Positions 9,470 through 36,931 of a stretch of 64,000 bases of DNA are shown here, piece after piece (position 1 is the stretch's first letter; every line of letters begins with the position of its first letter). The notes under the pieces are model-generated. The model did no database searches and was not told the origin of the DNA. It saw nothing but the letters and a program-made list of their open reading frames with translations. The stretch is from UHGV virus genome UHGV-1558314. One strand, 5' to 3'. Position numbers and translations under genes: made by a program. The DNA is from a virus.

Positions 9470-9572
9470 CTTGAGTCAAAAAATGATGGCTGCTGCTACA
9501 TTTTGTGAAATCATGTGCAGCAGCCATCTGGCAGGTTTCTTGCTTTGTAAAGCTTGGATAGAGGATGGATTT

Positions 9573-10461: not shown

Positions 10462-12018
10462 TCATTGCACTTCTACGAATGGCTCTTTCAACACAAAGCT
10501 GTCACCATTGCAACATGCGGCTGAGCCATCGTCTGCATCAAGTGCGCATGACATATCAGACTTGCAGAACTTGCAATATGAACATGACCATGCATGACTC
10601 ATAAAGTTGTTTGCTTCACAAATTACACAGCGCTCATGTGAAAGTGTATTGTCGCAATTGTCACAAGACTTCTTGATTGGCACATCTTTATTGATATATG
10701 CAAGATGCAATGCAATATCATACACAAAGTCACCCGTATATTGCTGAATGAAATCAGTGTGCCACAACTCTTTTAACAATTGTGTATGTCTATATGGCTG
10801 AACAATGTCTTCAAGATGCTGCAAGTCATCATCGCTAACCATGAGCTTCTTAATGACAAACTGTTTGAACTGCGGCCATCTGTCAAACATATAGAGTTTG
10901 CATGAGTTGTGCACAAGTGGAACACAGCCAAGCACAATGCTTTCACAGAATCTACGCAAACTAAAACAGTTTGCATCATATGACGGCACAATCAATGTGA
11001 ATCTGCTATGCTTGATGAGTTCAAGGTATGTGTCATATGGCAGTAGCTTGTCTGACAATGGCTGCTGTTGCTTGTCCCTGCTGAAAAATCTGAACACAAT
11101 GCCTTTATCAATTGCATCTTGATTGTGCAGATGCATGAGTTTGTTGATGAGTTCTGTGCGTTCAGTTTTGTCTCGCCAAGTATTCGTCAATGCAAATGCA
11201 AAATTCAGTCGCTTGTCATCAAACGTCGCTTCAATGTCATCCCAAGTTTTGTCATGCAAATACCAGTATTGCTGTGATGGGCACCATCCATAATATGCAA
11301 TAGCGTCTTGTTCTGCTGTAACGTCATACACATATGCAGAATTGTATTCAAGGCCAAGCCCTTTGACATTGTTGCAGTCATGAAAGTACCAATGCTGCAC
11401 TTTGAATATCTTTGATGCACTGAATGCGCTTTCATATGGCCCTGAATAGCGATAGTCAATGTAATTGAGCTTGTGCTGCAATGGGTCTTCGACAAAGTTG
11501 TTTATGACTGTGCCTTGTTGTTTGCCATTAGTCTTGCGAGCATTCAATGCAATATTGTACTGCATAATGACTGACAGCATCTCATACACTACATACATGA
11601 GTGCTTTGTAGACTGAGCCTGCTGCGTCAATTAGCGGCAAATCACGTTTGACTGATGCAGTACCAAATGTCTTGCAATATGCAGAAAATGTATCAAGTTC
11701 TGCCTGTTGAAATGAATTGCATGCGCCATTGAATATGTTGAATGTTGCAATGTAGCTCATATTACAAGATGTCATTGACATATCAAGACGCTTCATAATG
11801 TCAGCAATGCGACATTGAGCAAAATCTGACACATCAACATATTTGACATGATGACCTGATGCAGTCAAGCCAACTGCGACTTCTTTCATTTGTGGCACAA
11901 AGCCTACTACAATGAACAAGTCATCTTTGTTTGCTCGTTCAAACATTGCTGCACTTTTCCAAGTCAATGAATTGAAAAAGTCTATGTAGCCAGTCTGTGT
12001 GATGATATGTGTTCTCAT
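10462..12018 (-). CDS. glycosyltransferase-like protein (exostosin/GT47-like motif) with C-terminal Cys-rich extension
   Basis: NFVEDPLQHKLNYID, PSQQYWY, FTLIVPSYDANCFSLRRFCESIVLGCVPLV; Cys-rich tail (CDNCDN...CVICE...CSYCKFC). Confidence 0.5.
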   Translation of the reverse strand: MRTHIITQTGYIDFFNSLTWKSAAMFERANKDDLFIVVGFVPQMKEVAVGLTASGHHVKYVDVSDFAQCRIADIMKRLDMSMTSCNMSYIATFNIFNGACNSFQQAELDTFSAYCKTFGTASVKRDLPLIDAAGSVYKALMYVVYEMLSVIMQYNIALNARKTNGKQQGTVINNFVEDPLQHKLNYIDYRYSGPYESAFSASKIFKVQHWYFHDCNNVKGLGLEYNSAYVYDVTAEQDAIAYYGWCPSQQYWYLHDKTWDDIEATFDDKRLNFAFALTNTWRDKTERTELINKLMHLHNQDAIDKGIVFRFFSRDKQQQPLSDKLLPYDTYLELIKHSRFTLIVPSYDANCFSLRRFCESIVLGCVPLVHNSCKLYMFDRWPQFKQFVIKKLMVSDDDLQHLEDIVQPYRHTQLLKELWHTDFIQQYTGDFVYDIALHLAYINKDVPIKKSCDNCDNTLSHERCVICEANNFMSHAWSCSYCKFCKSDMSCALDADDGSAACCNGDSFVLKEPFVEVQ

Positions 12019-22989: not shown

Positions 22990-23741
22990 TTCACTTCAGG
23001 TTTTGCTTGCTTGGCCAACTCAGCTTCAGCATTGAACTCTTTGCCCTCAGCTTTCATTGTTTCAGCATAAGTCTTTTCATCAGTGTAACGTTCTACGTCA
23101 TCACCAAGCAGTTTTGCAACTTCATCATCTGCTTCAAACAATGGCTGTGGATTGTCATCATTGTCATCTTTGAGTTGCTCAAATGTGCTGTTATGCTTTT
23201 CTGCAATTTTGATGAGGTCAACGATTGAACGAGTTACGAGTTCACCATTGATGCCTGACTGTTGTTCAGATTGACCAGAGCCTTGTTGCAATTCTGCTTG
23301 AGTTGCTCGAACATTATTATTGAGTGATGCAAGTACATTGGGAAGAGTTCGACAATATGATATATACTGCTGAACCAACGACATTGCATCATTCTGCAGT
23401 TTGATGAGAAATGCAAACTCACCCATGCCTCCGCCTTGTGCATCAATGCGCTCGAATACTGAATCAAGTGCATGCATTGCATAGAACACTTGTTTGCAAA
23501 GTAAATTGATGTTTGTCTTCTCCATCTCGATTGATGCATCGATAAACGGTGACTTAACATCTGCTGCTATGCACAATTTGCGAACTTCGTCAACATATTT
23601 TGAACACTTGTCAAGTGTCTTGTCAAGTTTGCTTCGGTCAAACTGCTTGTAAACTTCTAATGCATCGCTTACTTCTGCAGCATCCAATATTGCATTTGCT
23701 GCAGCCAATTCTGATTCTCTGCTCATCTCAAAATGGTCCAA
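22986..23741 (-). CDS. hypothetical acidic protein
   Basis: 251-aa ORF. Confidence 0.45.
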   Translation of the reverse strand: MDHFEMSRESELAAANAILDAAEVSDALEVYKQFDRSKLDKTLDKCSKYVDEVRKLCIAADVKSPFIDASIEMEKTNINLLCKQVFYAMHALDSVFERIDAQGGGMGEFAFLIKLQNDAMSLVQQYISYCRTLPNVLASLNNNVRATQAELQQGSGQSEQQSGINGELVTRSIVDLIKIAEKHNSTFEQLKDDNDDNPQPLFEADDEVAKLLGDDVERYTDEKTYAETMKAEGKEFNAEAELAKQAKPEVK

Positions 23742-24337
23742 GCTTCAATGATTGCTGAAAAATCTTCAAAGGGCATTGTAGTGTAGCCGGAATCACCCCA
23801 AGATATACCCCAGCTATTCTTGATGATGAATGAGTCTTTTGTATAGCCGACAATTGACACTGCATGACCACCAAAATTGCCATCGCCTTTCCAAAAATGC
23901 TCAGCATCAATGTCTTTTACGAGCATACCAACAAAGACAGGCCCATTTGCTACAACAGCAGATTTGATTTCATCAATTGTGTAGCAACGTCTGTATGCAG
24001 TTATTGGCAATTGCTCTGAGCCCTTTGACATTTTGATTGGCTGTGCTTTGAGTAGCTTAAAGACGTCACGTGGAATCATGCCCTCTTGAGGCTTATTTGA
24101 ACGACGCTCATACAATGCTTTGATGTCAAGCTTGCCTTGCATAGACAGCACAGAAGACCACCAGTCAATCATTGTTGCTGCTGTGTAAGCTGCACACATT
24201 GATGTACTGCCTTGGTCTTCTACTTGAAGCTGAGCAAGCTTATATGCAAGTGGCAAGTCGGTTTTTGCGTCAAAGCGCAAGTCTCTGTCATCTTGTGGTG
24301 ACTGGATGTAGCCCAGTCCATATGTCATCTGTTTCAT
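23723..24337 (-). CDS. papain-family (C1A) cysteine peptidase
   Basis: Catalytic motifs QGSTSMCAAY (Q...C), GGHAVSIVGY (His), IKNSWGISWGDSGY (Asn-Ser-Trp), matching the papain QGSCGSCWAF / HAVAAVGY / NSWGTGWGENGY pattern. Confidence 0.8.
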   Translation of the reverse strand: MKQMTYGLGYIQSPQDDRDLRFDAKTDLPLAYKLAQLQVEDQGSTSMCAAYTAATMIDWWSSVLSMQGKLDIKALYERRSNKPQEGMIPRDVFKLLKAQPIKMSKGSEQLPITAYRRCYTIDEIKSAVVANGPVFVGMLVKDIDAEHFWKGDGNFGGHAVSIVGYTKDSFIIKNSWGISWGDSGYTTMPFEDFSAIIEAWTILR

Positions 24338-26837: not shown

Positions 26838-27124
26838 GCTCGTATAAGTTTGATGACACAGTGCCTACAAGTAGCAAAAGTACTCAATATTGTTTCTACT
26901 TTGACACTGTACTGCACATCAATGACACGATATGTGCCACACAATGCAGACATTTCTTGACGACGTTCTGCAGGTACATTGACACTGTCTGTCAAATTGA
27001 TGATTGCACCAATCTGCATAGATGACATGACTGCAAATTGTTCTGGACCTACTTCTGCTTTGCGATATGCGACTTGTTTGTTGTTTTCGCAAATACTGAA
27101 TGCTACTGTATAATCTGGTGTCAT
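26834..27124 (-). CDS. hypothetical protein
   Basis: 96-aa ORF. Confidence 0.4.
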   Translation of the reverse strand: MTPDYTVAFSICENNKQVAYRKAEVGPEQFAVMSSMQIGAIINLTDSVNVPAERRQEMSALCGTYRVIDVQYSVKVETILSTFATCRHCVIKLIRA

Positions 27125-27136
27125 GATAGTCGCGTT

Positions 27137-27616
27137 TTATTCATTATCGTCATCATATCCCATGCAATCTTCAAGACTTGCAAAGTCATCATCAAAGTCA
27201 TCGAATTCAGGCTCTTTATTGCACCATTTGTAAGGTGGATTGTTGAGCAATTCAAGCTCTATTGCATTTGACTGTGCAGAAATCGGAACATATTCGAATG
27301 CTTCGACTGACATATCAAATTTGATGCAATGCAGCCACGGAAACATATCAGTGTCCTCATGCACAATGGGCTGACGAACGTAGTCTTTCATTGCAATGAA
27401 CTTGCTGCTGTTGTCCCAGTCTTCAATAGGAATTTCAAACTGTGATATGGTCGTATGACAATCGTCAAAGAAATTGCAGGATACGCCTACAATAACGTGC
27501 GTGTCTGTACGTTGACGTTCTATTGCAAGAAAGTCGTGTTTCTTGGAAAGATGAACTTCTCCATGCTTCTCTAAAAAGATTTTAAGAAGCTCTTTGTTAA
27601 TGTCATTGATATTCAT
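27137..27616 (-). CDS. hypothetical acidic protein
   Basis: 159-aa ORF with Asp/Glu-rich C-terminus. Confidence 0.4.
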   Translation of the reverse strand: MNINDINKELLKIFLEKHGEVHLSKKHDFLAIERQRTDTHVIVGVSCNFFDDCHTTISQFEIPIEDWDNSSKFIAMKDYVRQPIVHEDTDMFPWLHCIKFDMSVEAFEYVPISAQSNAIELELLNNPPYKWCNKEPEFDDFDDDFASLEDCMGYDDDNE

Positions 27617-27638
27617 TGCTGTAGAGATTTTATGATGT

Positions 27639-27950
27639 TTAATACTGAGTTTTTGCAGATATAGCTACTTTAATTGCTGCTTTAATTTGTTCGATTGCAT
27701 CTTGTGAGAACAATTCTGGCACTGCTAAATAGTGATACCATGATGTTGGCGCTGCCTGCATATCAGTTCGTTTAATTGCGAACCGAAGTTCTTTTGGTGA
27801 ACCAAGGCAACCCATATATTGGCAGCTTATTAGCTTAACTTGCACATTGTTAATGCTGCTATGAATAGCAAGATGAGACAGATTTATTCTGTCATAGAAT
27901 TTTAGATGCTTGAGTTGTTTTTCAATTGCTTTGAATGCGTTTGTATTCAT
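27639..27950 (-). CDS. hypothetical protein
   Basis: 103-aa ORF; last minus-strand gene before the plus-strand cassette. Confidence 0.4.
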   Translation of the reverse strand: MNTNAFKAIEKQLKHLKFYDRINLSHLAIHSSINNVQVKLISCQYMGCLGSPKELRFAIKRTDMQAAPTSWYHYLAVPELFSQDAIEQIKAAIKVAISAKTQY

Positions 27951-28015
27951 TGTTGTAGAGGTTTGTATACTATATTGATATATGATAATTGTACTACAAA
28001 TTTATCAAATTTGCA

Positions 28016-28133
28016 CTGATTTAATATATAATATGTCAATAAATTTCACATATAAAGTCTTTTCGCTTATGAAAACTACTCAACTCTGGTTTGAACGCCA
28101 GCAGTCAATCGCGGGGGGGCTCTTCGTGACACA
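28016..28133 (+). repeat. promoter/leader module, copy A (inverted partner at 31048..31160)
   Basis: About 113-118 bp near-identical to the reverse complement of 31048..31160, with 2-3 mismatches/indels by eye in the upstream part; contains ATG 28069 and G7 tract. Confidence 0.8.
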
Positions 28134-28185
28134 GGCATGCGCATATACGTGCGTGACAATGCTGATAACATTGTTAATGGGCTAA
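28069..28185 (+). CDS. leader ORF (MKTTQLWFERQQSIAGG...) containing a G7 tract; overlaps 28137..28769 in the -1 frame
   Basis: ATG 28069; G7 at 28113-28119; stop at 28185. The frame of 28137..28769 is open from 28095 (TPAVNRGGALRDTGMRIY...). Confidence 0.4.
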   Translation: MKTTQLWFERQQSIAGGLFVTQACAYTCVTMLITLLMG

Positions 28186-28769
28186 CTTGCTATTTGCACT
28201 GTATTGAAACAGGTCGAACACTTCAAAGAGACTTGCACACAAGCAATAATGGTGATGGCGTCACATTTTACATAACTGGTGATGACTATAAGCAATTAGT
28301 CGGCTCAACAAAAGACGCACAATTTTATCTTATTGACACGCCTGATGCTGCAGATATGTCTTGGTCATCTGCAGCATTTACACTTAGATATGGCGCAGAT
28401 ATAGTTAACAACACACTAAATGTCAATATTGAAGCGTTCAAATCATGCGAAGTAACAATAACTAACAGTGGCAATACATGCAGTTGCACCGCAATGCTTG
28501 AATCTGCATTGCCAGTGGCAATTAAACTGTCAACAATTTGCAATACATCAGTAGCATCTAATGTCGATGTGTCAGTTAACATAGCTGCAAATAGCTTGAC
28601 TGCTAATTTTAGAGTTGGCAATAGCTTATCTGCAAAATTGACGCATGTCGGCATATGGTCTATTGCTAATGCTTCTTATGTTTCACCAATATATGAGGGT
28701 GCTATAATTGTGAAAACACTGAACGACATATTTCACGTGTTCATAACAGATAAGACAACACTTGGCTAA
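28137..28769 (+). CDS. cassette protein 1 (210 aa), Ser/Thr/Asn/Val-rich; function unknown
   Basis: ORF on the rare plus strand, directly after conserved leader copy 1. Confidence 0.55.
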   Translation: MRIYVRDNADNIVNGLTCYLHCIETGRTLQRDLHTSNNGDGVTFYITGDDYKQLVGSTKDAQFYLIDTPDAADMSWSSAAFTLRYGADIVNNTLNVNIEAFKSCEVTITNSGNTCSCTAMLESALPVAIKLSTICNTSVASNVDVSVNIAANSLTANFRVGNSLSAKLTHVGIWSIANASYVSPIYEGAIIVKTLNDIFHVFITDKTTLG

Positions 28770-28804
28770 GTGTACATATCTTACAACATTCAAACATATA
28801 GCAT

Positions 28805-28858
28805 ATGAAAACTCCACAATTTTGGTTTGAGCGTCAACAAGGGCTAGCGGGGGGGCTC
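28805..28858 (+). repeat. diverged third copy of the leader module
   Basis: atgaaaactccacaattttggtttgagcgtcaacaagggctagcgggggggctc versus copy A; upstream part not conserved. Confidence 0.6.
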
Positions 28859-28861
28859 TAA
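28805..28861 (+). CDS. leader ORF copy 2 (MKTPQFWFERQQGLAGGL*) with G7 tract
   Basis: ATG 28805; G7 at 28849-28855; stop TAA at 28859-28861; about 75 percent nt identity to leader copy 1. Confidence 0.3.
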   Translation: MKTPQFWFERQQGLAGGL

Positions 28862-28898
28862 ATTAGTCTACCTGCAACTTGTTATTGGCGACGCTTCG

Positions 28899-29327
28899 TT
28901 GTACAACTTTGGCACTACTGAAACAATGGCGATACAAGGTACAATATCGCTTGACAATGTCACAGTTAACATACCAACGTCAGGCTTTCCTATCAAAATG
29001 ATGGAATGCCGCGGTGGTGAAACTCATGCAATTGGTGCGTTAATGATGCCAAAAGCTTATGACTACTCAAACTTTGCTGCAAAAATTGGTTTTGGCTGCT
29101 ATGCAGCAGATGGTCGTGGCACTGGCAACGTTTACAACATCAATGTGTATGCCAACATTAACAACACAAGCCCTGGTGGTAATCCCATACTGTTAACTTC
29201 TATGGCATGGCAATATCCATTAGGCGTTGGTGATAAGCTTACATTGCCAATGTCAAATCCATCTGTCAAAGTTAACAATGGAGATATCGTGTCAATCATA
29301 CTTAAGAATGCAAGGAAAGTCAGCTAA
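28899..29327 (+). CDS. cassette protein 2 (142 aa; ATG start probably at 28926)
   Basis: ORF-track start is TTG at 28899; in-frame ATG at 28926 (MAIQGTISLD...). Frame is +1 relative to leader copy 2. Confidence 0.5.
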   Translation: MYNFGTTETMAIQGTISLDNVTVNIPTSGFPIKMMECRGGETHAIGALMMPKAYDYSNFAAKIGFGCYAADGRGTGNVYNINVYANINNTSPGGNPILLTSMAWQYPLGVGDKLTLPMSNPSVKVNNGDIVSIILKNARKVS

Positions 29328-29351
29328 CTGACAGATGCATCACATATAAGC

Positions 29352-29390
29352 AATGCTCCACTGAGAAATCTCAGTGGAGCATTTTTTGTG
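29352..29390 (+). terminator. rho-independent terminator between convergent genes 28899..29327 (+) and 29412..29822 (-)
   Basis: 14-bp stem aatgctccactgag / ctcagtggagcatt, loop aaat, then TTTTGTG on the plus strand. Confidence 0.65.
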
Positions 29391-29411
29391 CTGTTTGGCA
29401 ATTTTAGACAT

Positions 29412-29822
29412 CTATATGCTATAGTATGCCCTATTGACAAGCAACACATAGTCACCACACAGTAATGCAGCGTACGACATCATGCAATCATCTTGCGGCG
29501 CACTGACATCTGCATATCCTTTTGCGTACATAACCATGTTGTTGTGCACAAAGTCAACTTTAGCATTTGCATAAATTGCATCAGTGCCACGGTCAACTAT
29601 AAATGATTCACCGCGTTCAAGCGCATTTGCATTAATTGTCACGGTAGATGTACCAGCATTAATGCTGTACAATGTATTTGGCACAGCATTAATGCTGGTA
29701 CTTGATACCGTCATAAACTTAGCAGCAAATATGCTATCAACCAAATCACCAAATTGTGCTGAGGTGGGTTTATCTCCGGTTTCAAAATACGTTTTGAGTA
29801 CCGAACGTGTTTGAACTGCCAT
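29412..29822 (-). CDS. cassette protein 3 (136 aa)
   Basis: Convergent with the plus-strand genes; upstream short ORF (29957 down to 29841) carries another G7 tract. Confidence 0.5.
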   Translation of the reverse strand: MAVQTRSVLKTYFETGDKPTSAQFGDLVDSIFAAKFMTVSSTSINAVPNTLYSINAGTSTVTINANALERGESFIVDRGTDAIYANAKVDFVHNNMVMYAKGYADVSAPQDDCMMSYAALLCGDYVLLVNRAYYSI

Positions 29823-30017
29823 ATGTTTCGATGTTTTAAGTTATGCAATGTGACATGAAAGCAACACTGCAAACTTTTCATCGAATGCAATGTCACCTAC
29901 GTTATAACAAGAGATTGAGCCAGATATGTGACCCCCCCAATTCAATTTGAATGTCATAAAGCTTATGAGTTTGTAAATGTTTGTTTTGTTTATATATTTT
30001 GACTGCCCATATGTACA

Positions 30018-30094
30018 TATCAAAACAACATCTTAGTTGTTTTGCATCTTGCATCAAAACAACATCTTAGTTGTTTTGCATCTTGCATCAAAAC
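30018..30094. repeat. tandem direct repeat, 34-bp unit x2.3, each unit with a 9-bp-stem hairpin
   Basis: tatcaaaacaacatcttagttgttttgcatcttg / catcaaaacaacatcttagttgttttgcatcttg / catcaaaac; internal inverted repeat caaaacaac-atctta-gttgttttg. Confidence 0.8.
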
Positions 30095-30269
30095 TCATAG
30101 GCATTGCATTCAAAGATGAAGATTTTACAGCAGACATTGCACTTGATAACGCGTCATTTTATGATGGCCAAACTGCATGGCTAACTGGAAAGCTTCTGGC
30201 AGCATTGTGTTAAGTATAAAACAGTTACATTGAAAGCTAACACAACAGTAAACATCGCCATTTAATGCA

Positions 30270-30315
30270 CATCAAAAACTCCACTGAACAATTAAGTTCA
30301 GTGGAGTTTTTGATG
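30270..30315. terminator. bidirectional hairpin terminator downstream of gene 30332..30985
   Basis: catcaaaaactccactgaac-aattaa-gttcagtggagtttttgatg; stem flanked by A5/T5 so either strand reads hairpin plus U-tract. Shares core CTCCACTGA with the 29352 hairpin. Confidence 0.6.
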
Positions 30316-30331
30316 TGTAGTGTGCAAAATA

Positions 30332-30985
30332 CTACAACATATTCCAGTTTGTTATGTCATACATGTTGAAGCTGAACGCTGATGTGATGTATCCAAGAGT
30401 AGTCAAGATGTCCACACCAACTACAGGGTCATTTGCAATAAGCAAAATACAGTTAGTGACAGACGTATCGACCATATTGTCTGCTTGAAAATCATTGTGC
30501 ATCAACCAGTCAGCAAAGCAGATGTCATAGTACACAGGATTGCCTGCAAATACTTTATCATTTCCAAATGCTTCTGATGGGTGCGACAATGTAGATGCAA
30601 GCAGTTGAATGTCTTCATCTGTGCAAGACGATTTAATGTCATCAAGCACAATTGCTACACGCTGCTCATTTGTCTCTGAATCACCTCTATGAATTTCATG
30701 AATCCAAGGCAAGCATGCAAGTGCATCACCACATGTCAAATTGACATTATCAAGTGTCTCGCCTTGACCTGCGTAGCAATATAAAGTGGAGCCAGTGCCA
30801 TAACGTAGACAGTCATTTATGCTGACATTATCAAGATACACTGAACAAATTGACAATGCACCTGCACCAAGCCTGTTTGCAGGAATTGTCAACTTATATG
30901 TTGGCACGCCATTTGACTGCACTGTAATAGGCGAGCCCGCTAATAATTCACCAGTGTCAGCATCATAGCATTCGACTTCTTGCAT
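30332..30985 (-). CDS. cassette protein 4 (217 aa)
   Basis: Preceded by leader copy 3 (ATG 31110, G7 at 31066-31060 on minus); gene frame is -1 relative to leader and open through the tract (TPAVNRGGALRDTIISGT...). Confidence 0.55.
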   Translation of the reverse strand: MQEVECYDADTGELLAGSPITVQSNGVPTYKLTIPANRLGAGALSICSVYLDNVSINDCLRYGTGSTLYCYAGQGETLDNVNLTCGDALACLPWIHEIHRGDSETNEQRVAIVLDDIKSSCTDEDIQLLASTLSHPSEAFGNDKVFAGNPVYYDICFADWLMHNDFQADNMVDTSVTNCILLIANDPVVGVDILTTLGYITSAFSFNMYDITNWNML

Positions 30986-31047
30986 AGTCGCATATGCAGC
31001 TTCAAGTAGTGAACCATCTGCTTTGTTGATAGTGCCGCTGATAATAG

Positions 31048-31160
31048 TGTCACGAAGAGCCCCCCCGCGATTGACTGCTGGCGTTCAAACCAGAGTTGAG
31101 TAGTTTTCATAAGCGAAAAGACTTTTTGTATGTGAAATTTATTGACATATTATATATCAG
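31048..31160 (-). repeat. promoter/leader module, copy B (inverted partner of 28016..28133)
   Basis: Reverse complement reads ctgatatataatatgtcaataaatttcacatacaaaaagtcttttcgcttATGaaaactactcaactctggtttgaacgccagcagtcaatcgcgggggggctcttcgtgaca. Confidence 0.8.
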
Positions 31161-31171
31161 GCAGCAATATG

Positions 31172-31210
31172 CACAAAAAAGAAGAGCATCGGTTAAAAAC
31201 CGATGCTCTT
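31172..31210 (-). terminator. rho-independent terminator after BACON-like gene 31259..31873
   Basis: Stem aagagcatcgg / ccgatgctctt, loop ttaaaaa; minus strand continues CTTTTTTGTG. Confidence 0.55.
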
Positions 31211-31258
31211 TCAAGTTCTGCTGTGAACTGTTCAATAGTGTAATCTTGTTGTACTCGA

Positions 31259-31873
31259 TTACGATACAGTCCACGGGCAGTTTGCGGTAACCGTAACCGT
31301 AACGGCAGGAGTACCGGCCTGAGGAATCGTGATTTCCTGCTTGTCGAGTACCAGCGTCGGGTCACCAGCAGCCTGAACGATTGCAATCTGAGCAGTCTGG
31401 GCACCGTTGGCAGTTACCAAAATCGATGTCGTGCGCTCGTTAATCGTCAAGTTGGCAGGAATGTCAAGCTCAATGCTGAAAGCAAACTCGGCGTTGGCAC
31501 CAGGGTCACCAGTGATTGCTACGCCATTGTTGGTTTCTACACCAGCAACTGCGTACTTTTTAGGCAGTTCGATAACAAACTCGCCGCCCTCAACGATGCT
31601 GAACGTCAGCTTCGATGAGTTAGATACACCGGTTACGGTAAGAGTACCGCCAGCTTTAGGAGCTGACATCTCTGAGCCGTTGTCAAATGACACGAACTCA
31701 GCCTTTGCAGTCTGCTGTACATTGTACGTTGAAGGCGCTGCAATACCAGCACCCTGAACGGTTACAACACCAGTACGTGCAATACGACCAGTGTGGGCGT
31801 CAGCAGAGTTGGAAATTGAACCATTACCCGAACCAGATGTCGGGCTAAGTTTCAACCATGCGGGTTTAGCCAT
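31259..31873 (-). CDS. BACON-like domain protein
   Basis: N-terminus MAKPAWLKLSPTSGSGNGSISNSADAHTGRIARTGVVTVQ fits the BACON pattern (W..s..sGsG.g......R.a.itv) as recalled from memory; paralog of the two downstream genes. Confidence 0.5.
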   Translation of the reverse strand: MAKPAWLKLSPTSGSGNGSISNSADAHTGRIARTGVVTVQGAGIAAPSTYNVQQTAKAEFVSFDNGSEMSAPKAGGTLTVTGVSNSSKLTFSIVEGGEFVIELPKKYAVAGVETNNGVAITGDPGANAEFAFSIELDIPANLTINERTTSILVTANGAQTAQIAIVQAAGDPTLVLDKQEITIPQAGTPAVTVTVTANCPWTVS

Positions 31874-31931
31874 TGTTCAAAATTGTTATTAAGTGAGTGT
31901 ATATGTTTAACACAAATTCGATGATTGCTCA

Positions 31932-32531
31932 TCAAAGAATTTTCCAAGAAGCGTTTGATGTCAAATTCATTGTGATTGTCGTGCCATCATCATCAACTGT
32001 CACAGATTCTGTACTCAGCACAAGAGTTGCTGCAGCAGCTGCTTGAGTAATGCTAACATTCAATGATTTGCCACCAGGAGTTGTCACTGTCAATACAAAT
32101 GATTTCTGTTCAATTGTCAAATTTTGCGGTATTGTAGCTTCAATTGACCATGCAAACTTTGCAATATATCCAGGGTCATTTGCAATTGCTGTGTCATTTG
32201 TTGCAGCGACGCCATTTGCTGTGTACGCAGTCGGAATGCTAAGATTCGGATTTGTAGTTGCAAACTTAAGTTTTGCTGCGTTAGACTCACCAGAAACAAC
32301 AATTTTTGTGGTTGCCGCAGAAACATTGTATGATGTTGTGCCAGATACAAATTCTGCAAGAGCAGCTTGGTTGATTGTTGCTTGCTTTGTAACTGTTGGT
32401 GTGGTCTTCGTTTGCACAGTCGCAATTGTGCTACGAATGCCTCTGCCGGTATGAGCTCCTGCAGTAAATGCCAGGATATCATTACCCTCACCAGACATTG
32501 GTGAACACTGTGCCCATATAGCTTTTGCCAT
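31932..32531 (-). CDS. BACON-like domain protein
   Basis: MAKAIWAQCSPMSGEGNDILAFTAGAHTGRGIRSTIATVQ; ends with ...NVSITQAAA. Confidence 0.5.
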   Translation of the reverse strand: MAKAIWAQCSPMSGEGNDILAFTAGAHTGRGIRSTIATVQTKTTPTVTKQATINQAALAEFVSGTTSYNVSAATTKIVVSGESNAAKLKFATTNPNLSIPTAYTANGVAATNDTAIANDPGYIAKFAWSIEATIPQNLTIEQKSFVLTVTTPGGKSLNVSITQAAAAATLVLSTESVTVDDDGTTITMNLTSNASWKIL

Positions 32532-32602
32532 TGTTACTGTGCAATTTTTAATTGTTTGACATGATATTTATATGCATTGCTTAAGCAATGTTGAATTGAC
32601 AT

Positions 32603-35600
32603 TTATCGAACAAGGAATGATGTACCAACAACCATATTCGGGATTGCCAAGCCATTGCCAGACTGGCTTACTGCAACTGTGCCACTTGTGTAGCCTGACA
32701 ATGCAGCAGTAATTGTTGCCGACCTGCTGTTATCTGAACCCCAGTTGTTTGCAGCTGACAATGTCGAACCGCTGATTGTGAATGCACCATTGTTCGATGA
32801 GTACGTTGGAGTAACCGCAGCATCTGATGTTGTAGACTGACCTGTCGTGTACTTTGTGACAGTTCGACCTGTCGTAGACAATGTTGCAGTGCCACCAGCA
32901 GCCCCAAAGCTTGTAACAGTTGAGCTGACAATCAGAGTCTTCGTAGTCGAAGTCACACTGTTGGCTTCCTGTGTAGCAGTGATTGCTTTTGAGCCAGTTT
33001 GACCATTCAACGCAACCGTCATATTGACTGTAGCGGTTCTTGCAGAACCAGCAGTTGTGCCACGATTTGCAGCAGTCAATGAACCGGTTGTACTACTGTT
33101 AAGCGTAAAGCCAGTAGTTGTAGCCATACTGTATGAAATTGTACCGCCAGATGTAATAGTAGTTTTTGAACCACTTGTGTACGTTGCTGTCTGCGAGTAT
33201 GCTGGCGTGCCTGTTGGAGTCTTTGTTGCACCTGCTGCAGCAAATGTTGCATATGATGTTGCTGTAGTAACTGTGACTGCGCTGTATGATACACTGTTAG
33301 CTGCTTGATAAACATCAAGAGCTTTTGTAGCAGTCTTAGACCCTTCACCAGTAGCAGTTGCAGTCAAAGTGCCAATCTTTGTACGAGCTTTGACTGTAGT
33401 GCCAAGCGATGATGCGCTGACTTTTGTGCTATACGCAATGCTAACTGAACCTGGCCTTGTGCTGCCAGACGTATATGTAATTGTCTGTGATGCACTGATG
33501 CCAGACATTGATGCAACTTCACCGCCACCAGCAGGAATATCTGACACAGTTCCACCAGAAATTGTAACCGCGCCATATGTCGTAATTGCATTTGCAGCTT
33601 GGTACACATCGACTGCTTTTGTTCCAGATTTGCCATTGACTGTTACTGTAACAGTAGATGTTGTAATCTTTGTGCGGGCTTTAGCAGTAGTGCCAAGTGA
33701 ACTACCAGACACTGCGCCAGTAGACGTTGTTACACCAGTGCCAGACCATGATTTGCTGCCACCAGACGTAACTGTCTGTGTTGAGCCACTTGACCACATA
33801 ACTGATTGACTGAATGACACTGAAGGCGTAACTGAGCCACCCTTTGCAGGAACATCGCTATAAGTCATCGAAACTGTGGGCGTACCATATGTAGCAGCAT
33901 TAGCATTTTGAGATGCAGTAGCAGTCTTTGTTCCACTGATGGCTTTTGTGCCTGCAGCATTGTATGACGCAGTAGGCGTCCATGTAGCTGTTACAGTCTT
34001 TGTGACTGTCAGCGATGTAGTTGCGCCACTTGCAGTAGTGCCTTTTGATGATGCGGTTATAGCACCAGTAGATGTATTGAGTGCAGTGAACAATCCTGAT
34101 GCGCCTGGCCAACTATATGATGTTGTAGTTGACAATGAACCATACGTAGATGCTGGCGCAGTAGTTGAAGTACTGCCACTACTAAAATGGTATGTTACTG
34201 TGTTTGCACCATTTGACGGTGTAGATGTTCCGCCACCTGCAGCAATTGCAGGATATGACATCGAACCAACTGCAATATTGAGTGCAGTCACATAGTTGCC
34301 TGCCTGATAAATCGTGGCAGACTTGCTGGCAGATTTGCCATTCATTGTGACTTTAACAGTCAGTGTGCCTGCAGTAGTCTGGTTAGATATTGCGGTGTCT
34401 TTTGATTGCGCAGTGACTGTTGACGTATACTCAATTGTTCCGCCGCTTGTCAGTGTTTCTGTCGTCTTTTCACCAGTAGCATATGTCGTAGTTTTGACCT
34501 GCGAGTAAGTTACTGTGCCAGATTTTACAGAACCTCCGCTTGCTGCAATGATAGTTGCAGACGGCGTCAAGTTAACTGTGATATCGCTATATGTAACTGT
34601 GCCAGCAGATTGAGCTGCTTGATAAACATCTGCAGCTTTTGATGCAGACTTGCCATTGAGTGCTACTGTGACAGTCAATGTGCCAATCTTTGTTCGTGGC
34701 TTAACTGTTGTGCCAAGTGATGATGCAGTGATACCTGCTGCTGGACTGTATGAAATTGTTGCACCAGTAGTGATGTTCTGTGTTGAAGTTGATGTGTATG
34801 TTGCAGTCTGCGAATATGACACATTGCCGCTCTTAATTGTACCACCAGTTACAGGAATATCTGCTACAGTGAAGCTTGAAATTGTAACTGCGCCATATGA
34901 CACAGTGTTTGCAACTTGCTTGACTGTGCAAGAACCAGTTTTTGTAACACCGCCCTCAGTATATGAGCCAGAAATTGTAATGCTGCGTTCTGCGCCTACG
35001 ACTGTTGTGCGATTTGCTGCAGTTACTGTAGCAGTCGACAATGTAAAGCCAGTTGCTGAACCGCTAAGTGTTGCAGATACTGCAGCAGATGACGTTGAGC
35101 CTGATGCATATGTGTATGACGCTGTTGAAGTGATTGTAGTTGAACCGCCACCAGCTGCCAATGTTGCAGCGCCAGGTGTCAATGTCAAGCCATTCAGCGT
35201 CTTTGAGTTTGCAGTTTGTGTTGCAGTAGCAGTTTTTGTAGCAGACTTGCCATTGATTGCTACCGTAACTGTGACAGCATTTGAAGCATCAGTAGAGCCT
35301 ACATATGATGTGCCCATTGACGTTACAGTCAATGCGCCACTTGTCGTATTCAATGTCCAGCGTGACTTAGCAGTCATTGCATAAGACAATGTAGCGCCAC
35401 TTGTCAATGTGCCACCTGAGCCAGCTACGCCATTCCAAGTCCAAACTTGTGAATATGAAACAGTTGGGTTTGATGTACCACCAGCAGGAGCAATGTTAGC
35501 ATATGAGAATGTTCCAATGACAGGCGTTGCATAGACTTTAGCACCTGCAGCTTGGTTGAACGTAATATCTTTTGATGCAGACTTACCATTTGCAGTGACT

Positions 35601-36931
35601 GTCAAGGTGACAACAAACCCATTACGTGCAACAGTAGAATTGTTGTTTGTCACTGTGACATTCAAGCCAGACAAGCTGTAGCCTGTTGCAGCAGTTTTGA
35701 CGGCAGCAGTCCATATGCCGCCTGACGTGTTACTATCAGTTGAGCCGCTGCTGTATGTCATTGACTGCGTAAATGTTGCAGATGCATTAGCTGCAACAGT
35801 TTGACCTGCTACTGCAAGAGCAACTGGTGTTGTCTTTGTAATGACTGGTGTGCCGTATGTAATGCTGTTGGCTGCTTGTGTAATTGATACAGTAGCAGTT
35901 GCATTGCCATATGACGCTGTGCCGCTAAATGACCGAGCATCACCGACAGTCTTACCACGATTTGCAGATGTTACAGAATTTGCAGATATTGTAAAGCCTG
36001 TTGCAGTGCCTGTAATTGTTGGCTTGACATTTGTTTCAGTAGATGTAACAACACCGTTCCATGTCACAGTGTACGTACCAGTGATGGTTGATGTTCCACC
36101 TGCTGCAGTATGACTTGTTGAATATGTGTTCAAAGCAAGTTTGTACACAACTGAACCTGCAGCTTGTGAGCATTTAACGGTCTTCGATAATTCATGACCA
36201 CTTACAGTCAGTGTTGGTGTAACTGCTGCAGTTGACGTGTTGTTCGGTGTATTGACAGTGATTGTTGCAGGACCTGTGCCAGATGCTTTTGAGACTGACC
36301 AACCTGCAGGTACGCCCGAAATTGTCCATGCAAAGTCAGGATTACAAGAAATTGCGAATGTCTTCGATTCACCCTTTGCAACAAATGACAAAGTTTCTGG
36401 TGATACTGCCAATGTTGCACTTGCACCAGCTTGATTTACTGTAAATGTTGCAGACTTGCCACCAGGCGTTGACAATGTGAAAGTGAATGCCTTTGCAGCG
36501 ATTGCAGTATGTGCAGCAATCTGCACTCGTACAATGACTTCAAATTCTGCATTGACACCAGGGTCATTGTCAAAATTTGTATTAAGCGCATAATCTTTGC
36601 TTGCAACAGTTACGCCAAGCACTGTGCCACTTGCAGTACCGCCAGTACTGCCAAGCACAAGTTTTTGTGCATTTGTGACACATTTCAATGTTGCAATAGT
36701 GCCACCATTTGACGCAATGTTTGTAGATGCAACTGTAGCTCGTATAGTTTCACCAGGAGACTCTTGCAATACTGCACAGTTTTCAGTTACTACTGGTGAA
36801 CCTGTAGTTGTTTGCGCAGTAAAGCTGCCAGACCTGTTATTTCGACCAGTATGCACAGATGCTTTGACAGACAACTGTGAGTTGCCTGTGCCAACATCAG
36901 GTGTAACTGTCAACCAAGTAGGCTTTGCCAT
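32603..36931 (-). CDS. giant Thr/Ser-rich repeat protein with N-terminal BACON-like domain and many tandem Ig-like repeats (probable fibre/adhesin)
   Basis: N-terminus MAKPTWLTVTPDVGTGNSQLSVKASVHTGRNNRSGSF; repeated ~90-aa units ending NGKSASK....YQAAN. Confidence 0.6.
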   Translation of the reverse strand: MAKPTWLTVTPDVGTGNSQLSVKASVHTGRNNRSGSFTAQTTTGSPVVTENCAVLQESPGETIRATVASTNIASNGGTIATLKCVTNAQKLVLGSTGGTASGTVLGVTVASKDYALNTNFDNDPGVNAEFEVIVRVQIAAHTAIAAKAFTFTLSTPGGKSATFTVNQAGASATLAVSPETLSFVAKGESKTFAISCNPDFAWTISGVPAGWSVSKASGTGPATITVNTPNNTSTAAVTPTLTVSGHELSKTVKCSQAAGSVVYKLALNTYSTSHTAAGGTSTITGTYTVTWNGVVTSTETNVKPTITGTATGFTISANSVTSANRGKTVGDARSFSGTASYGNATATVSITQAANSITYGTPVITKTTPVALAVAGQTVAANASATFTQSMTYSSGSTDSNTSGGIWTAAVKTAATGYSLSGLNVTVTNNNSTVARNGFVVTLTVTANGKSASKDITFNQAAGAKVYATPVIGTFSYANIAPAGGTSNPTVSYSQVWTWNGVAGSGGTLTSGATLSYAMTAKSRWTLNTTSGALTVTSMGTSYVGSTDASNAVTVTVAINGKSATKTATATQTANSKTLNGLTLTPGAATLAAGGGSTTITSTASYTYASGSTSSAAVSATLSGSATGFTLSTATVTAANRTTVVGAERSITISGSYTEGGVTKTGSCTVKQVANTVSYGAVTISSFTVADIPVTGGTIKSGNVSYSQTATYTSTSTQNITTGATISYSPAAGITASSLGTTVKPRTKIGTLTVTVALNGKSASKAADVYQAAQSAGTVTYSDITVNLTPSATIIAASGGSVKSGTVTYSQVKTTTYATGEKTTETLTSGGTIEYTSTVTAQSKDTAISNQTTAGTLTVKVTMNGKSASKSATIYQAGNYVTALNIAVGSMSYPAIAAGGGTSTPSNGANTVTYHFSSGSTSTTAPASTYGSLSTTTSYSWPGASGLFTALNTSTGAITASSKGTTASGATTSLTVTKTVTATWTPTASYNAAGTKAISGTKTATASQNANAATYGTPTVSMTYSDVPAKGGSVTPSVSFSQSVMWSSGSTQTVTSGGSKSWSGTGVTTSTGAVSGSSLGTTAKARTKITTSTVTVTVNGKSGTKAVDVYQAANAITTYGAVTISGGTVSDIPAGGGEVASMSGISASQTITYTSGSTRPGSVSIAYSTKVSASSLGTTVKARTKIGTLTATATGEGSKTATKALDVYQAANSVSYSAVTVTTATSYATFAAAGATKTPTGTPAYSQTATYTSGSKTTITSGGTISYSMATTTGFTLNSSTTGSLTAANRGTTAGSARTATVNMTVALNGQTGSKAITATQEANSVTSTTKTLIVSSTVTSFGAAGGTATLSTTGRTVTKYTTGQSTTSDAAVTPTYSSNNGAFTISGSTLSAANNWGSDNSRSATITAALSGYTSGTVAVSQSGNGLAIPNMVVGTSFLVR

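What the first reader, a model, noticed from the sequence alone, without database searches (positions are those of the whole stretch)
28805..28928. Third, diverged leader copy whose ORF stops immediately after its G7 tract
The module at 28805 keeps the peptide (MKTPQFWFERQQGLAGG) and the G7 tract at about 75 percent nt identity but has lost the conserved upstream region. It ends GGL-stop two codons after the tract, and the downstream gene (TTG 28899 / ATG 28926) is +1 relative to it. A tract-length change that turns copies 1 and 3 on would not turn this one on, which would allow combinatorial expression states.
Basis: seen in the sequence. Interest (0 to 1): 0.55.

Follow-up and report, generated by a model that had tools for sequence, protein, structure and literature searches.

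The report
Poly-G on/off switch in phage gene
A run of seven G's just after the start of a small gene in a large, uncultured phage most likely works as a mutational on/off switch, here set to "off". It is one of at least four independent switches in a short island of probable host-recognition genes, a strategy already known from Campylobacter phages.

Summary
At 28805-28861 an 18-codon ORF (MKTPQFWFERQQGLAGGL*) is 75% identical to the two leaders at 28069 (+) and 31110 (-). It carries a G7 tract and lacks their upstream block. The 142-aa body lies in the +1 frame.

Comparative data support a slipped-strand poly-G switch.
- The stretch from the tract to ATG 28926 is open only in the body frame. 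It is closed by a TAG just upstream of the tract, and it varies almost only at third codon positions. It can therefore only be translated through the tract.
- G6 or G9 fuses leader and body; G8 fuses copies 1 and 3.
- Other assemblies carry this tract as G7, G8 or GGGAG7. One carries a different leader that is in frame, giving a 165-aa product.
- Two genomes identical over 8,506 nt differ only by two 1-nt indels, both inside poly-G tracts.
- The predicted fusions exist elsewhere for copy 3 (259 aa) and copy 1 (interrupted GGGGGTGG tract).

The window holds four such tracts and two leader families. Leaders are swapped or recombined at the tract.

This is a new variant of a known kind. Reads and protein data are missing, and the in-frame state of this exact leader-body pair was not seen.

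The parts
28801..28859 (+). Copy-2 leader module: the segment homologous to the copy-1 and copy-3 leaders, running from 4 nt before the ATG through the G7 tract and CTCT.
   Evidence: The repeat finder gives D1/I2 at 76% identity. Identity from the ATG is 42/56.
28805..28861 (+). Leader ORF MKTPQFWFERQQGLAGGL*, as it reads in the G7 state.
   Evidence: Half of the codon changes relative to copy 1 are synonymous.
28849..28855 (+). G7 tract, the proposed slipped-strand switch. G6/G9 is in frame; G7 and G8 are out of frame.
   Evidence: Orthologues carry G7, G8 and GGGAG7.
28857..28925 (+). N-terminal extension of the body, SKLVYLQLVIGDASLYNFGTTET, in the +1 frame. No start codon precedes TTG 28899, and the frame is closed by a TAG immediately 5' of the tract.
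   Evidence: Across four haplotypes there are 5 variable sites, 4 of them at codon position 3 and all four upstream of TTG 28899, and no stop codons. This stretch is translated in frame in P0008.
28926..29327 (+). Annotated 133-aa part of the body (142 aa if counted from TTG 28899). It is all-beta and weakly resembles PKD-like/Ig repeats of a Bacteroidota protein with a CHU_C (type IX secretion) domain.
   Evidence: The single-sequence AlphaFold2 model is poor but all-beta.
29352..29383 (.). Bidirectional terminator hairpin between the convergent copy-2 gene and the 136-aa gene. No terminator lies between copy 1 and copy 2, so the two are probably co-transcribed.
28024..28132 (+). Copy-1 upstream block, leader MKTTQLWFERQQSIAGG and G7 tract (28113-28119). 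The body runs to 28769, and G8 gives a 233-aa fusion.
   Evidence: An in-frame allele with an interrupted tract, GGGGGTGG, is present in L138.
31047..31157 (-). Copy-3 upstream block, leader and G7 tract (31060-31066). The body runs down to 30332, and G8 gives a 259-aa fusion. This segment forms a 97%-identical inverted repeat with copy 1.
   Evidence: Exactly this fusion is on record as P0035, and G6 alleles occur in L131/L136, L132 and L137.
29841..29957 (-). Fourth switch, with a type-B leader (MTFKLNWGG) and a G7 tract at 29932-29938. In the G7 state a 38-codon ORF ends at a TAA 18 nt before, and in frame with, ATG 29822 of the 136-aa gene.
   Evidence: Orthologues carry G7, G8, G9 and G10.
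29412..29822 (-). 136-aa gene downstream of the fourth tract. Its family has an invariant 34-aa N-terminus and a variable C-terminal domain, and the fold resembles the N-terminal parts of tailspike and baseplate proteins.
30019..30094 (.). 34-nt tandem repeat (2.2 copies), each unit containing a hairpin. Its copy number varies between otherwise identical genomes.

Best explanation
Proposed mechanism: the copy-2 module is the 5' end of a phase-variable gene. Its real product starts at ATG 28805, runs through the poly-G tract, and continues in the +1 frame as a protein of about 173 aa (MKTPQFWFERQQGLAGG-SKLVYLQ...).

Slippage of the replicating polymerase on the G tract changes its length by one base at high frequency. 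In this genome the tract is G7, so translation stops after 18 codons and the switch is OFF. G6 or G9 would restore the fusion and turn it ON.

Copy 2 is one of at least four independently switching cassettes in a 3-kb island (up to eight in relatives). The island lies next to BACON-domain and baseplate genes of a roughly 175-kb myovirus-like phage, probably of Bacteroidota. The cassette bodies are small beta-rich proteins, at least one of them tail-fibre or baseplate-like. Switching therefore probably produces virions with different surface or receptor-binding equipment within one lysate.

Shown here:
- the anatomy and the frame logic;
- coding-type conservation of the extension between tract and ATG 28926;
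- tract-length polymorphism confined to the tracts;
- natural in-frame alleles;
- exchange of leaders between bodies.

Inferred, not shown:
- the switching rate within a population;
- that the fusion protein is actually made;
- virion location and function;
- the host.
For: 1. Frame logic. G6/G9 fuses copy 2, and G8/G5 fuses copies 1 and 3.

2. The extension can only be translated through the tract. The body frame is shut by a TAG directly 5' of the tract and has no start codon before TTG 28899. Across four haplotypes the 23 codons up to ATG 28926 contain no stop, and 4 of their 5 variable sites are at codon position 3, all four upstream of TTG 28899 (P = 0.045).

3. The leader peptide is conserved through synonymous changes.

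4. Orthologous copy-2 tracts vary: G7 (window, L010, L133, L139), G8 (L004, L138) and GGGAG7 (L005-L009). L002 has a type-B leader in frame, giving the 165-aa P0008.

5. L136 and L135 come from different samples and are identical over 8,506 nt except for two 1-nt indels, both inside poly-G tracts. P0024 (217 aa) and P0025 (251 aa) have identical bodies and differ only in the gene start that the tract state allows.

6. In-frame alleles exist. P0035 is exactly the predicted 259-aa copy-3 fusion. In L138, copy 1 carries GGGGGTGG, an in-frame and stabilised tract, and its internal ATG has become GTG.

7. The tracts are exceptional in this genome. There are four G/C runs of 7 against 0.07 expected, no G/C runs of 5 or 6, and no A/T run of 7 or more against 20.5 expected.

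8. The context suggests host recognition: BACON domains, a baseplate wedge protein, and a fold for the neighbouring 136-aa protein resembling the CBA120 TSP4 N-terminus and T4 gp9/gp10.

9. There is precedent. Fletchervirus phages express two of their four receptor-binding proteins phase-variably through 7-11 G tracts (Sorensen 2021, as summarised in PMC8713573, and in bioRxiv 10.1101/2025.10.21.683753).
Against: - No sequencing reads were available, so heterogeneity within one population, reversibility and the switching rate are not shown.
- The in-frame state of this exact leader-body pair (G6 or G9) was not seen in 5 haplotypes; all were OFF.
- Three assemblies of the window's own strain (window, L010, L133) all carry G7 at all four tracts, so switching is not fast enough to change every consensus.
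- Most observed tracts sit one G short of the ATG frame. That excess would also fit -1 ribosomal or transcriptional slippage.
- Homopolymer lengths in short-read assemblies carry some error.
- The body keeps a conserved internal ATG (28926), so a shorter product independent of the tract cannot be excluded.
Confidence: 0.7

Rival explanations
1. Recoding rather than mutation. The G tract is a fixed slippery site on which ribosomes (-1 frameshift at G_GGG_GGG) or RNA polymerase (adding one G) shift at a set rate. The fusion proteins would then be made constitutively at a low level from the G7 DNA. Under this reading copy 2 of the window, which needs the opposite shift, is the odd one out and truly silent.
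For: - In copies 1 and 3 the G7 lies exactly in the X_XXY_YYZ phase of the leader frame, and the body is in the -1 frame.
- The state that is one G short of the ATG frame is the most common among the alleles seen: copy 1 in three haplotypes, copy 3 in three (including a contig-start allele in L138 whose frame was not computed), copy 2 in L004, L138 and L005, and also L001 and a further cassette in L138.
- The 217-aa form of the copy-3 body is the most frequent among the cluster members listed.
Against: - Tract length is not conserved. It ranges from G6 to G10 at orthologous sites, including G6 alleles of copy 3 and the window's own copy 2, which need the opposite shift.
- There is no RNA structure beyond shuffled controls downstream of any tract (z = -0.03, 0.15 and 0.48).
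- In copy 2 of the window the -1 frame hits a TAG after 3 codons.
- In-frame DNA alleles and an interrupted in-frame allele exist.
- Type-B leaders carry G7 to G10 with no fixed phase.
Confidence: 0.13
2. The leader is a separate short upstream ORF or a recombination relic. The 133/142-aa protein is always made from ATG 28926 or TTG 28899, and tract length only changes translation of the upstream ORF, perhaps tuning downstream initiation.
For: - Gene callers start the protein at the ATG in nearly all assemblies (133 aa).
- The Met at 28926 is conserved in all haplotypes.
- The fourth tract shows such an arrangement: its leader ORF ends 18 nt before the start of the downstream gene.
Against: - The 14 codons upstream of TTG 28899 evolve as coding sequence in the body frame, with four of the five changes at third positions, all four upstream of TTG 28899, and no stops. 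They are part of the in-frame product P0008.
- In copy 1 the corresponding internal ATG is lost (GTG) in two haplotypes, while the fusion frame stays intact.
- The leader peptide is itself conserved at the amino-acid level.
Confidence: 0.1
3. Decay or artefact. The genes are frameshifted pseudogenes, or the tract lengths are homopolymer errors of short-read assembly, and there is no switching function.
For: All three type-A cassettes of the window are out of frame. Homopolymer calls are the least reliable part of short-read assemblies.
Against: - Three independent assemblies give the same G7 at all four tracts.
- The bodies remain intact ORFs, with variation biased to the third codon position, in at least 6 genomes.
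- The genome otherwise avoids long homopolymers, yet keeps G runs of 7 or more only at 5' ends of cassette genes.
- In-frame alleles are on record.
Confidence: 0.05

Closest known systems
Hypermutable poly-G tracts in receptor-binding-protein genes of Campylobacter Fletchervirus phages (Sorensen et al., Cell Rep 2021; summarised in PMC8713573 and bioRxiv 10.1101/2025.10.21.683753)
   Same: - Both are phage-encoded G tracts of 7-11 nt inside coding sequence.
- A length change of one base shifts the frame.
- Several alternative host-recognition proteins are encoded, only some of which are switchable.
- The result is a phenotypically mixed phage population.
   Different: - There is no sequence relationship: no DNA match in INPHARED and no PHROG or Pfam hit for the bodies.
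- The host is probably Bacteroidota, not Campylobacter.
- Here the tract sits at codons 7-17 inside short leaders of two families. These leaders are shared by unrelated bodies and are exchanged or recombined at the tract.
- Four to eight switches are packed into one island.
- Nothing has been tested experimentally.
Contingency loci (simple-sequence repeats) in T2/T4 and other phages (Gomez, Barrick and Waters, bioRxiv 2025)
   Same: Homopolymer slippage gives reversible frameshifts and acts as bet-hedging.
   Different: - Those are mostly A/T runs scattered through ordinary genes, detected at about 1e-3 in reads.
- Here the genome is depleted of A/T runs of 7 or more (0 against 20.5 expected).
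- Here the G tracts are concentrated in dedicated leaders of one gene island.
Neisseria opa gene family (own knowledge): CTCTT repeats in the leader-peptide coding region of about 11 paralogous loci
   Same: Both are multi-copy families in which a conserved 5' leader carries the slippery repeat. Each copy switches independently at the level of translation, giving combinatorial expression, and the copies recombine with each other.
   Different: Opa is bacterial, not phage. Its repeat is a pentanucleotide, not a homopolymer. Its leader is a signal peptide, whereas this leader is not hydrophobic. There is no homology.
Invertible tail-fibre segments (Mu G segment / P1 C segment)
   Same: Both offer alternative host-range proteins in one locus, flanked by an inverted repeat (copy 1 and copy 3, about 110 nt, 97% identical).
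   Different: - All genomes compared have the same orientation.
- No recombinase was found among the neighbouring genes tested.
- Both repeats carry their own upstream block, so an inversion would change nothing.

Membership tests
Slipped-strand (homopolymer) contingency locus / phase-variable gene | A homopolymeric tract of about 7 nt or more inside the ORF or promoter | tested here: met
   A G7 tract at 28849-28855 sits at codons 15-17 of the leader ORF.
Slipped-strand (homopolymer) contingency locus / phase-variable gene | A change of one repeat unit switches between a full-length and a truncated product | tested here: met
   G6/G9 gives 173/174 aa. G7 gives 18 aa and G8 gives 20 aa.
Slipped-strand (homopolymer) contingency locus / phase-variable gene | Tract length varies among close relatives far more than the surrounding sequence | tested here: met
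   The copy-2 tract occurs as G7, G8 and GGGAG7. L136 and L135 have 0 substitutions in 8,506 nt and 2 indels, both inside tracts.
Slipped-strand (homopolymer) contingency locus / phase-variable gene | Both ON and OFF alleles occur in nature | tested here: inconclusive
   This is met for copy 3 (P0035), for copy 1 (L138) and for this body behind a type-B leader (P0008). For copy 2 with its own type-A leader, all 5 haplotypes seen are OFF.
Slipped-strand (homopolymer) contingency locus / phase-variable gene | High-frequency, reversible length heterogeneity within one population | not testable with these tools
   This needs read-level data. Only consensus assemblies were available.
Slipped-strand (homopolymer) contingency locus / phase-variable gene | Protein expression follows tract length | not testable with these tools
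   This needs proteomics or reporter assays.
-1 programmed ribosomal frameshift site | An X_XXY_YYZ heptamer in the zero frame with the downstream ORF in the -1 frame | tested here: not met
   The heptamer G_GGG_GGG is in phase, but for copy 2 the -1 frame stops after 3 codons (ALN*) and the body is in the +1 frame. The feature is met only for copies 1 and 3.
-1 programmed ribosomal frameshift site | A stimulatory RNA structure a few nucleotides downstream | tested here: not met
   The 80 nt downstream of each tract fold no better than shuffled sequences (z = -0.03, 0.15 and 0.48).
-1 programmed ribosomal frameshift site | The slippery site is conserved in length among relatives | tested here: not met
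   Orthologous sites carry G6 to G10.
Fletchervirus phase-variable receptor-binding proteins | Sequence homology to the Fletchervirus receptor-binding-protein genes | tested here: not met
   A blastn search of 27000-33000 against 50,697 phage records gave no match. The cassette bodies have no PHROG family.
Site-specific invertible segment (Gin/Cin type) | Both orientations occur among relatives, and a recombinase gene lies nearby | tested here: not met
   All loci have the same orientation. The Pfam scans of island and neighbouring genes found no recombinase domain. Not every ORF of the window was scanned.

The most novel reading that the evidence does not exclude
The leader-plus-tract units may be portable switch cassettes. 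Each would consist of a start codon, a conserved short peptide and a G tract, and two unrelated leader families exist. Recombination at the identical GCG7CTCT core would move these units between unrelated bodies, and would also delete or fuse cassettes.

Under this reading the island combines slipped-strand phase variation with cassette shuffling. The shared 17-22-aa leader peptide would act as a common docking tag, so that only cassettes that are ON are mounted on the baseplate.

The exchange itself is observed. The same body occurs behind three different leaders: a type-A2 leader in the window, the copy-1 leader plus its upstream block in L139 after deletion of the copy-1 body, and a type-B leader in L002. 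The docking-tag role and the role of the tract as the crossover site are conjecture.
Probability: 0.3. Interest if true: 0.7.

Novelty: new variant of a known kind. Interest (0 to 1): 0.5.

Why it matters
If the tracts switch as inferred, one lysate of this roughly 175-kb uncultured phage contains particles with up to 2^4 to 2^8 different sets of small surface or tail-associated proteins. That would be a cheap bet-hedging answer to hosts that vary their own surface. The phage is probably a human-gut Bacteroidota phage. One sample name (ZEEV15) suggests a stool cohort, but that link is my inference.

- It would extend poly-G phase variation of phage host-recognition genes beyond Campylobacter phages, to a lineage whose probable hosts are themselves well known for phase variation of surface structures (own knowledge).
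- It shows a modular design, a shared leader carrying the switch, which gene callers systematically miss. They start the genes at internal ATGs and annotate the leaders as nothing.
- It is directly testable from existing public reads.

Tried and rejected
- **INPHARED.** A distant blastn search of 27000-33000 found no match.
- **Protein families.** PHROGs and Pfam gave nothing for the four cassette bodies. A PDB sequence search with the copy-2 body also gave nothing.
- **Structure of the copy-2 body.** Single-sequence AlphaFold2 gave pLDDT 42, which is unusable beyond showing an all-beta protein.
- **Rfam.** The island has only sub-threshold hairpin matches and no known leader or riboswitch.
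- **Classical -1 frameshift.** No downstream RNA structure was found.
- **Invertible segment.** No orientation variants and no recombinase were found.
- **Contig breaks.** Logan contig ends next to the tracts were considered as evidence of heterogeneity and rejected. They fall exactly 30 nt before the first unique base of the copy-1/copy-3 repeat, so they are k-mer repeat breaks.
- **Stop-codon reassignment.** This was considered and rejected. The stops involved are TAA, and long standard-code ORFs fill the window.
Full report
**1. The observation**

The sequence at 28805-28861 reads ATG AAA ACT CCA CAA TTT TGG TTT GAG CGT CAA CAA GGG CTA GCG GGG GGG CTC TAA, which translates to MKTPQFWFERQQGLAGGL*. 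The G7 tract occupies 28849-28855.

The window contains exactly four G/C runs of 7: 28113-28119 (+), 28849-28855 (+), 29932-29938 (-) and 31060-31066 (-). Dinucleotide shuffles predict 0.02 and a first-order Markov model predicts 0.07. There are no G/C runs of 5 or 6 at all. There is also no A/T run of 7 or more, against 20.5 ± 4.6 expected. The genome therefore avoids long homopolymers except at these four places.

Copy 2 is 42/56 nt (75%) identical to copy 1 (28069-28124), and copy 1 is identical to copy 3 (31110-31055, minus strand) over the same span. The repeat finder independently gives 28801-28859 against 28065-28123 at 76%. Of the eight codons that differ, four are synonymous (GAA/GAG, CGC/CGT, and CAG/CAA twice) and the rest are conservative (T/P, L/F, S/G, I/L). 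The peptide, not just the DNA, is conserved.

Copies 1 and 3 also share an upstream block of about 45 nt (TATATAATATGTCAATAAATTTCAC...). It occurs only at those two places in the window, and copy 2 lacks it. Copy 2 starts 35 nt after the stop of the copy-1 body with no terminator in between, and a strong bidirectional terminator follows it at 29352-29383. TTG 28899 and ATG 28926 are both +1 relative to ATG 28805.

**2. Frame logic**

I replaced the tract with G5 to G9 in silico.

| Cassette | In-frame lengths | Fusion product | Out-of-frame result |
|---|---|---|---|
| Copy 1 | G8 / G5 | 233 aa, MKTTQLWFERQQSIAGG-ALRDTG-MRIYV... | |
| Copy 3 | G8 / G5 | 259 aa, ...AGG-ALRDTIISGTINKADGSLLEAAYAT-MQEVE... 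| |
| Copy 2 | G6 / G9 | 173/174 aa, MKTPQFWFERQQGLAGG-SKLVYLQLVIGDASLYNFGTTET-MAIQ... | G7 gives L*; G8 gives ALN* |

In copy 2 the body frame is closed by a TAG immediately 5' of the tract (...C TAG CGG GGG GGC TCT AAA...). It has no ATG, GTG or TTG before TTG 28899. The 14 codons SKLVYLQLVIGDAS can therefore only be translated by a ribosome that started at ATG 28805 and changed frame at the tract.

**3. Is the extension coding?**

I collected the orthologous region from other public assemblies by exact-protein look-ups and one IMG/VR hit. Four distinct haplotypes of the copy-2 body can be compared.

- In the 69 nt between the tract and ATG 28926 there are five variable sites. Four are at codon position 3 of the fusion frame and all four lie upstream of TTG 28899; the fifth, at codon position 2, lies downstream of it. 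There is no stop codon (binomial P = 0.045).
- This stretch is more conserved at the amino-acid level than the rest of the protein, which has 50 variable sites in 399 nt, 21 of them at positions 1 or 2.
- In the IMG/VR relative (L002) the same stretch is read in frame from a different leader: ATG AAC ATT ACA ATG AAC TGG GGG GGC TCT AAA... This gives MNITMNWGG-SKLVYLQ..., a 165-aa protein that is on record as P0008 on two contigs (longest 176,073 nt).

**4. Are the tracts hypermutable?**

States of the copy-2 tract:

| Assembly | Leader | Tract | Status |
|---|---|---|---|
| Window, L010 (ERR1136818), L133 (ERZ27260853) | type A2 | G7 | OFF, needs one G fewer |
| L004 (ERR10744954), L138 (ERZ27261429) | type A2 | G8 | OFF, needs one G more |
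| L005-L009 (five SRR226005xx runs) | type A2 | GGGAG7 | OFF, needs one G more |
| L139 (SRR16279997) | copy-1 leader | G7 | OFF, needs one G fewer |
| L002 (IMG/VR) | type B | G7 | in frame, ON |

Sources.

The other tracts vary as well:
- Copy 3 carries G7 in the window, L133 and L135, and G6 in L131/L136, L132 and L137.
- The fourth tract carries G7 (window, L133), G8 (L138), G9 (L139) and G10 (L135-L137).
- A fifth cassette, present only in relatives (MQIPRNWGG...), carries G9 (in frame, L136) or G10 (L135, L137, L138, L139).

The strongest single result is the comparison of L136 (JGI 3300045988) with L135 (ENA ERZ28666419). They align over 8,506 nt with zero substitutions and exactly two differences, both 1-nt indels inside poly-G tracts: copy 3 (G6 vs G7) and the fifth cassette (G9 vs G10). 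L136 and L137 differ by one tract indel and by two units of the 34-nt tandem repeat.

At the protein level, P0024 (217 aa, seen on 52 contigs) and P0025 (251 aa, on 6 contigs) have identical bodies. They differ only in the start that the tract state allows.

**5. In-frame alleles**

- P0035 (ENA, on a 25,462-nt contig) is a 259-aa protein that begins MKTTQLWFERQQSIAGGALRDTIISGTINK... This is exactly the fusion predicted from the window for copy 3.
- In L138, copy 1 carries GCGGGGGTGGCTC. That is an 8-nt, in-frame tract interrupted by a T, and it gives a 233-aa protein, MKTTQLWFERQQSIAGVALRDTGVHIYV... An interrupted tract should slip far less, so this looks like a stabilised ON allele.
- In the same allele, and in L002, the internal ATG that gene callers use for copy 1 has become GTG. 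The leader ATG is therefore the start that is maintained.

**6. Two leader families, exchanged at the tract**

Type-A leaders (MKT[TP]Q[LF]WFERQQ[SGV][IL]AGG) precede at least five unrelated bodies. These are copies 1, 2 and 3, the L001 body, and a 194-aa cassette in L138. Type-B leaders (M-x3-[LMR]-N-W-G-G) precede at least four: the fourth tract, the fifth cassette in two versions, and the copy-2 body in L002.

The copy-2 body occurs behind three different leaders. In L139 the copy-1 upstream block and leader are joined, at GCG7CTCT, directly to the copy-2 body, and the copy-1 body is deleted. That is the product expected from recombination between the two leader modules. In L002 only the segment between the preceding stop codon and the tract is replaced.

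This also explains why copy 2 needs a different length. The homologous module ends at ...G7CTCT (28859) and was joined to a body in another phase. Copy 1 continues G GCT CTT CGT, whereas copy 2 continues GGC TCT AAA.

**7. Context and likely function**

The window is part of a phage of about 175 kb; related contigs are 174.6-181 kb. Identified genes:
- SbcC-like nuclease, helicase, baseplate wedge protein and a sigma factor;
- gp32-like single-stranded-DNA-binding protein;
- BACON-domain proteins directly next to the island, at 31259-31873 and 32603-36931.

BACON domains, together with the similarity described next, suggest a Bacteroidota host. That is an inference.

The copy-2 body has no Pfam, PHROG or PDB match. 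Exhaustive HMMER finds weak similarity to a repeated domain of large proteins. One of these proteins (P0004) gave sub-threshold Pfam matches to PKD-like repeats and carries a CHU_C type IX secretion domain (E = 7e-8, about 33% identity over 70 residues, eight repeats). The poor AlphaFold2 model is all-beta.

The neighbouring 136-aa gene belongs to a family of 43 clusters. The family has an invariant 34-residue N-terminus (MAVQTRSVLKTYFETGDKPTSAQFGDLIDSALMA) and a highly variable C-terminal domain of about 100 residues. Its model (pLDDT 88) resembles:
- the N-terminal part of the CBA120 tailspike TSP4 (E = 9e-4);
- T4 gp9 and gp10;
- a Pseudomonas phage capsid spike;
- many predicted tail and tail-fibre proteins (E about 4e-6; TM-scores 0.45-0.57).

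The island is therefore best read as a set of small, exchangeable surface or host-recognition proteins. That function is inferred, not shown.

**8. Mechanism and rivals**

The simplest account of all the data is slipped-strand mispairing on the G tracts, producing heritable and reversible frame changes.

- **Recoding at a fixed G7** (-1 frameshift or transcriptional slippage). In its favour, the G_GGG_GGG heptamer of copies 1 and 3 is in perfect phase, and alleles one G short are in excess. Against it: tract lengths vary (G6 to G10). No structure lies downstream. Copy 3 in three genomes and copy 2 in the window need the opposite shift. In-frame DNA alleles exist. Low-level slippage during expression may nevertheless add to the DNA switch.
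- **Independent upstream ORF**, with the body always made from ATG 28926. The coding behaviour of the extension argues against this. A shorter product independent of the tract cannot be excluded, though, because the Met is conserved.
- **Pseudogenes or assembly error.** These do not fit the intact bodies, the reproducible lengths in three assemblies of the same strain, or the general avoidance of homopolymers elsewhere in the genome.

**9. Comparison with what is known**

Fletchervirus phages of Campylobacter encode up to four receptor-binding proteins, two of which are expressed phase-variably through poly-G tracts of 7-11 nt. This comes from Sorensen et al. 2021, which is not held in the library. 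I rely on its summaries in PMC8713573, in bioRxiv 10.1101/2025.10.21.683753 and its citation in PMC12823448. The 2025 preprint shows homopolymer contingency loci in T2 and T4.

The present case works like these but is not homologous to them. It differs in architecture:
- the tract lies in short leaders of two families, shared by unrelated bodies;
- the switches are clustered;
- the leader modules act as recombination points.

The closest architectural analogue I know is the Neisseria opa family, where the repeat sits in the leader-coding region of many paralogues. That comparison rests on my own knowledge and was not tested.

**10. Verdict**

This is a new variant of a known kind. Confidence in the mutational-switch mechanism is 0.7 and interest is 0.5. 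Missing are read-level heterogeneity, protein evidence, and an in-frame allele of this exact leader-body pair.

Noticed in passing
window 29841-29957 (-), tract 29932-29938: This is a fourth G7 tract with an unrelated leader (MTFKLNWGG). In the G7 and G10 states, a 38- or 39-codon ORF ends at a TAA 18 nt before ATG 29822 of the 136-aa gene and in the same frame. G8 and G9 alleles end earlier. The arrangement could be termination-reinitiation coupling or a relic of a former fusion. Orthologues carry G7, G8, G9 and G10.
   Followed up: partly
window 30019-30094: This is a perfect 34-nt tandem repeat (2.2 copies), each unit holding a 9-bp hairpin (CAAAACAAC...GTTGTTTTG), upstream of the fourth leader. 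Copy number is one of the few things that differ between otherwise identical genomes. The window has 2 copies and L133 has 3 at 100% identity elsewhere, and L136 and L137 differ by two units. It may be a second, promoter-level variable element.
   Followed up: partly
whole window: The window is depleted of homopolymers. There is no A/T run of 7 or more against 20.5 expected, 20 runs of 6 or more against 66 expected, and no G/C run of 5 or 6. This suggests selection against slippage-prone runs everywhere except at the four tracts.
   Followed up: yes
window 28024-28132 (+) and 31047-31157 (-): The upstream block plus leader of copies 1 and 3 form a 97-100% identical inverted repeat of about 110 nt, 2.9 kb apart. 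The two phages as a whole differ by 6-7%. This points to concerted evolution or strong constraint. No inversion was seen among the genomes compared.
   Followed up: partly
L139 (SRR16279997), minus strand around locus position 9480: The copy-1 upstream block and leader are joined at GCG7CTCT directly to the copy-2 body, and the copy-1 body is missing. This looks like a deletion by recombination between the two leader modules.
   Followed up: yes
L138 (ERZ27261429) 4428-5129 (-): This copy-1 allele has the interrupted tract GGGGGTGG. It is in frame (233 aa), and its internal ATG has changed to GTG. It is a probable stabilised ON allele. The island in this genome holds seven to eight cassettes rather than four.
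   Followed up: yes
L002 (IMG/VR relative) minus strand, tract 11442-11449: This gene is absent from the window. It has a lipoprotein-type signal, followed directly by a G8 tract (MIKKMICIAVCAWMCASCEKND-GGG-FDEP...), and is in frame for 333 aa. It may be a phase-variable phage lipoprotein.
   Followed up: no
window 29412-29822 (-), alignment A1: This family of 135-152-aa proteins has an invariant 34-residue N-terminus and a hypervariable C-terminal domain. There are several paralogues per genome. The confident model resembles the N-terminal parts of tailspike proteins and of gp9/gp10.
   Followed up: yes
window 31060-31110 (-) in the G6 state (L132, L136, L137): With G6, a TTG inside the leader but in another frame opens a 251-aa ORF (MNASSQSRG-ALRDT...), and gene callers report it (P0006, P0023, P0025). 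That frame contains a stop in copy 2 and is not conserved, so it is probably not a real start. It does inflate the apparent number of protein forms.
   Followed up: partly
window 46988-47884 (-) and 23723-24337 (-): The phage encodes its own sigma-factor-like protein (phrog_351) and a papain-family cysteine protease. The conserved block upstream of copies 1 and 3 could be a promoter read by the phage sigma factor. This was not tested.
   Followed up: no
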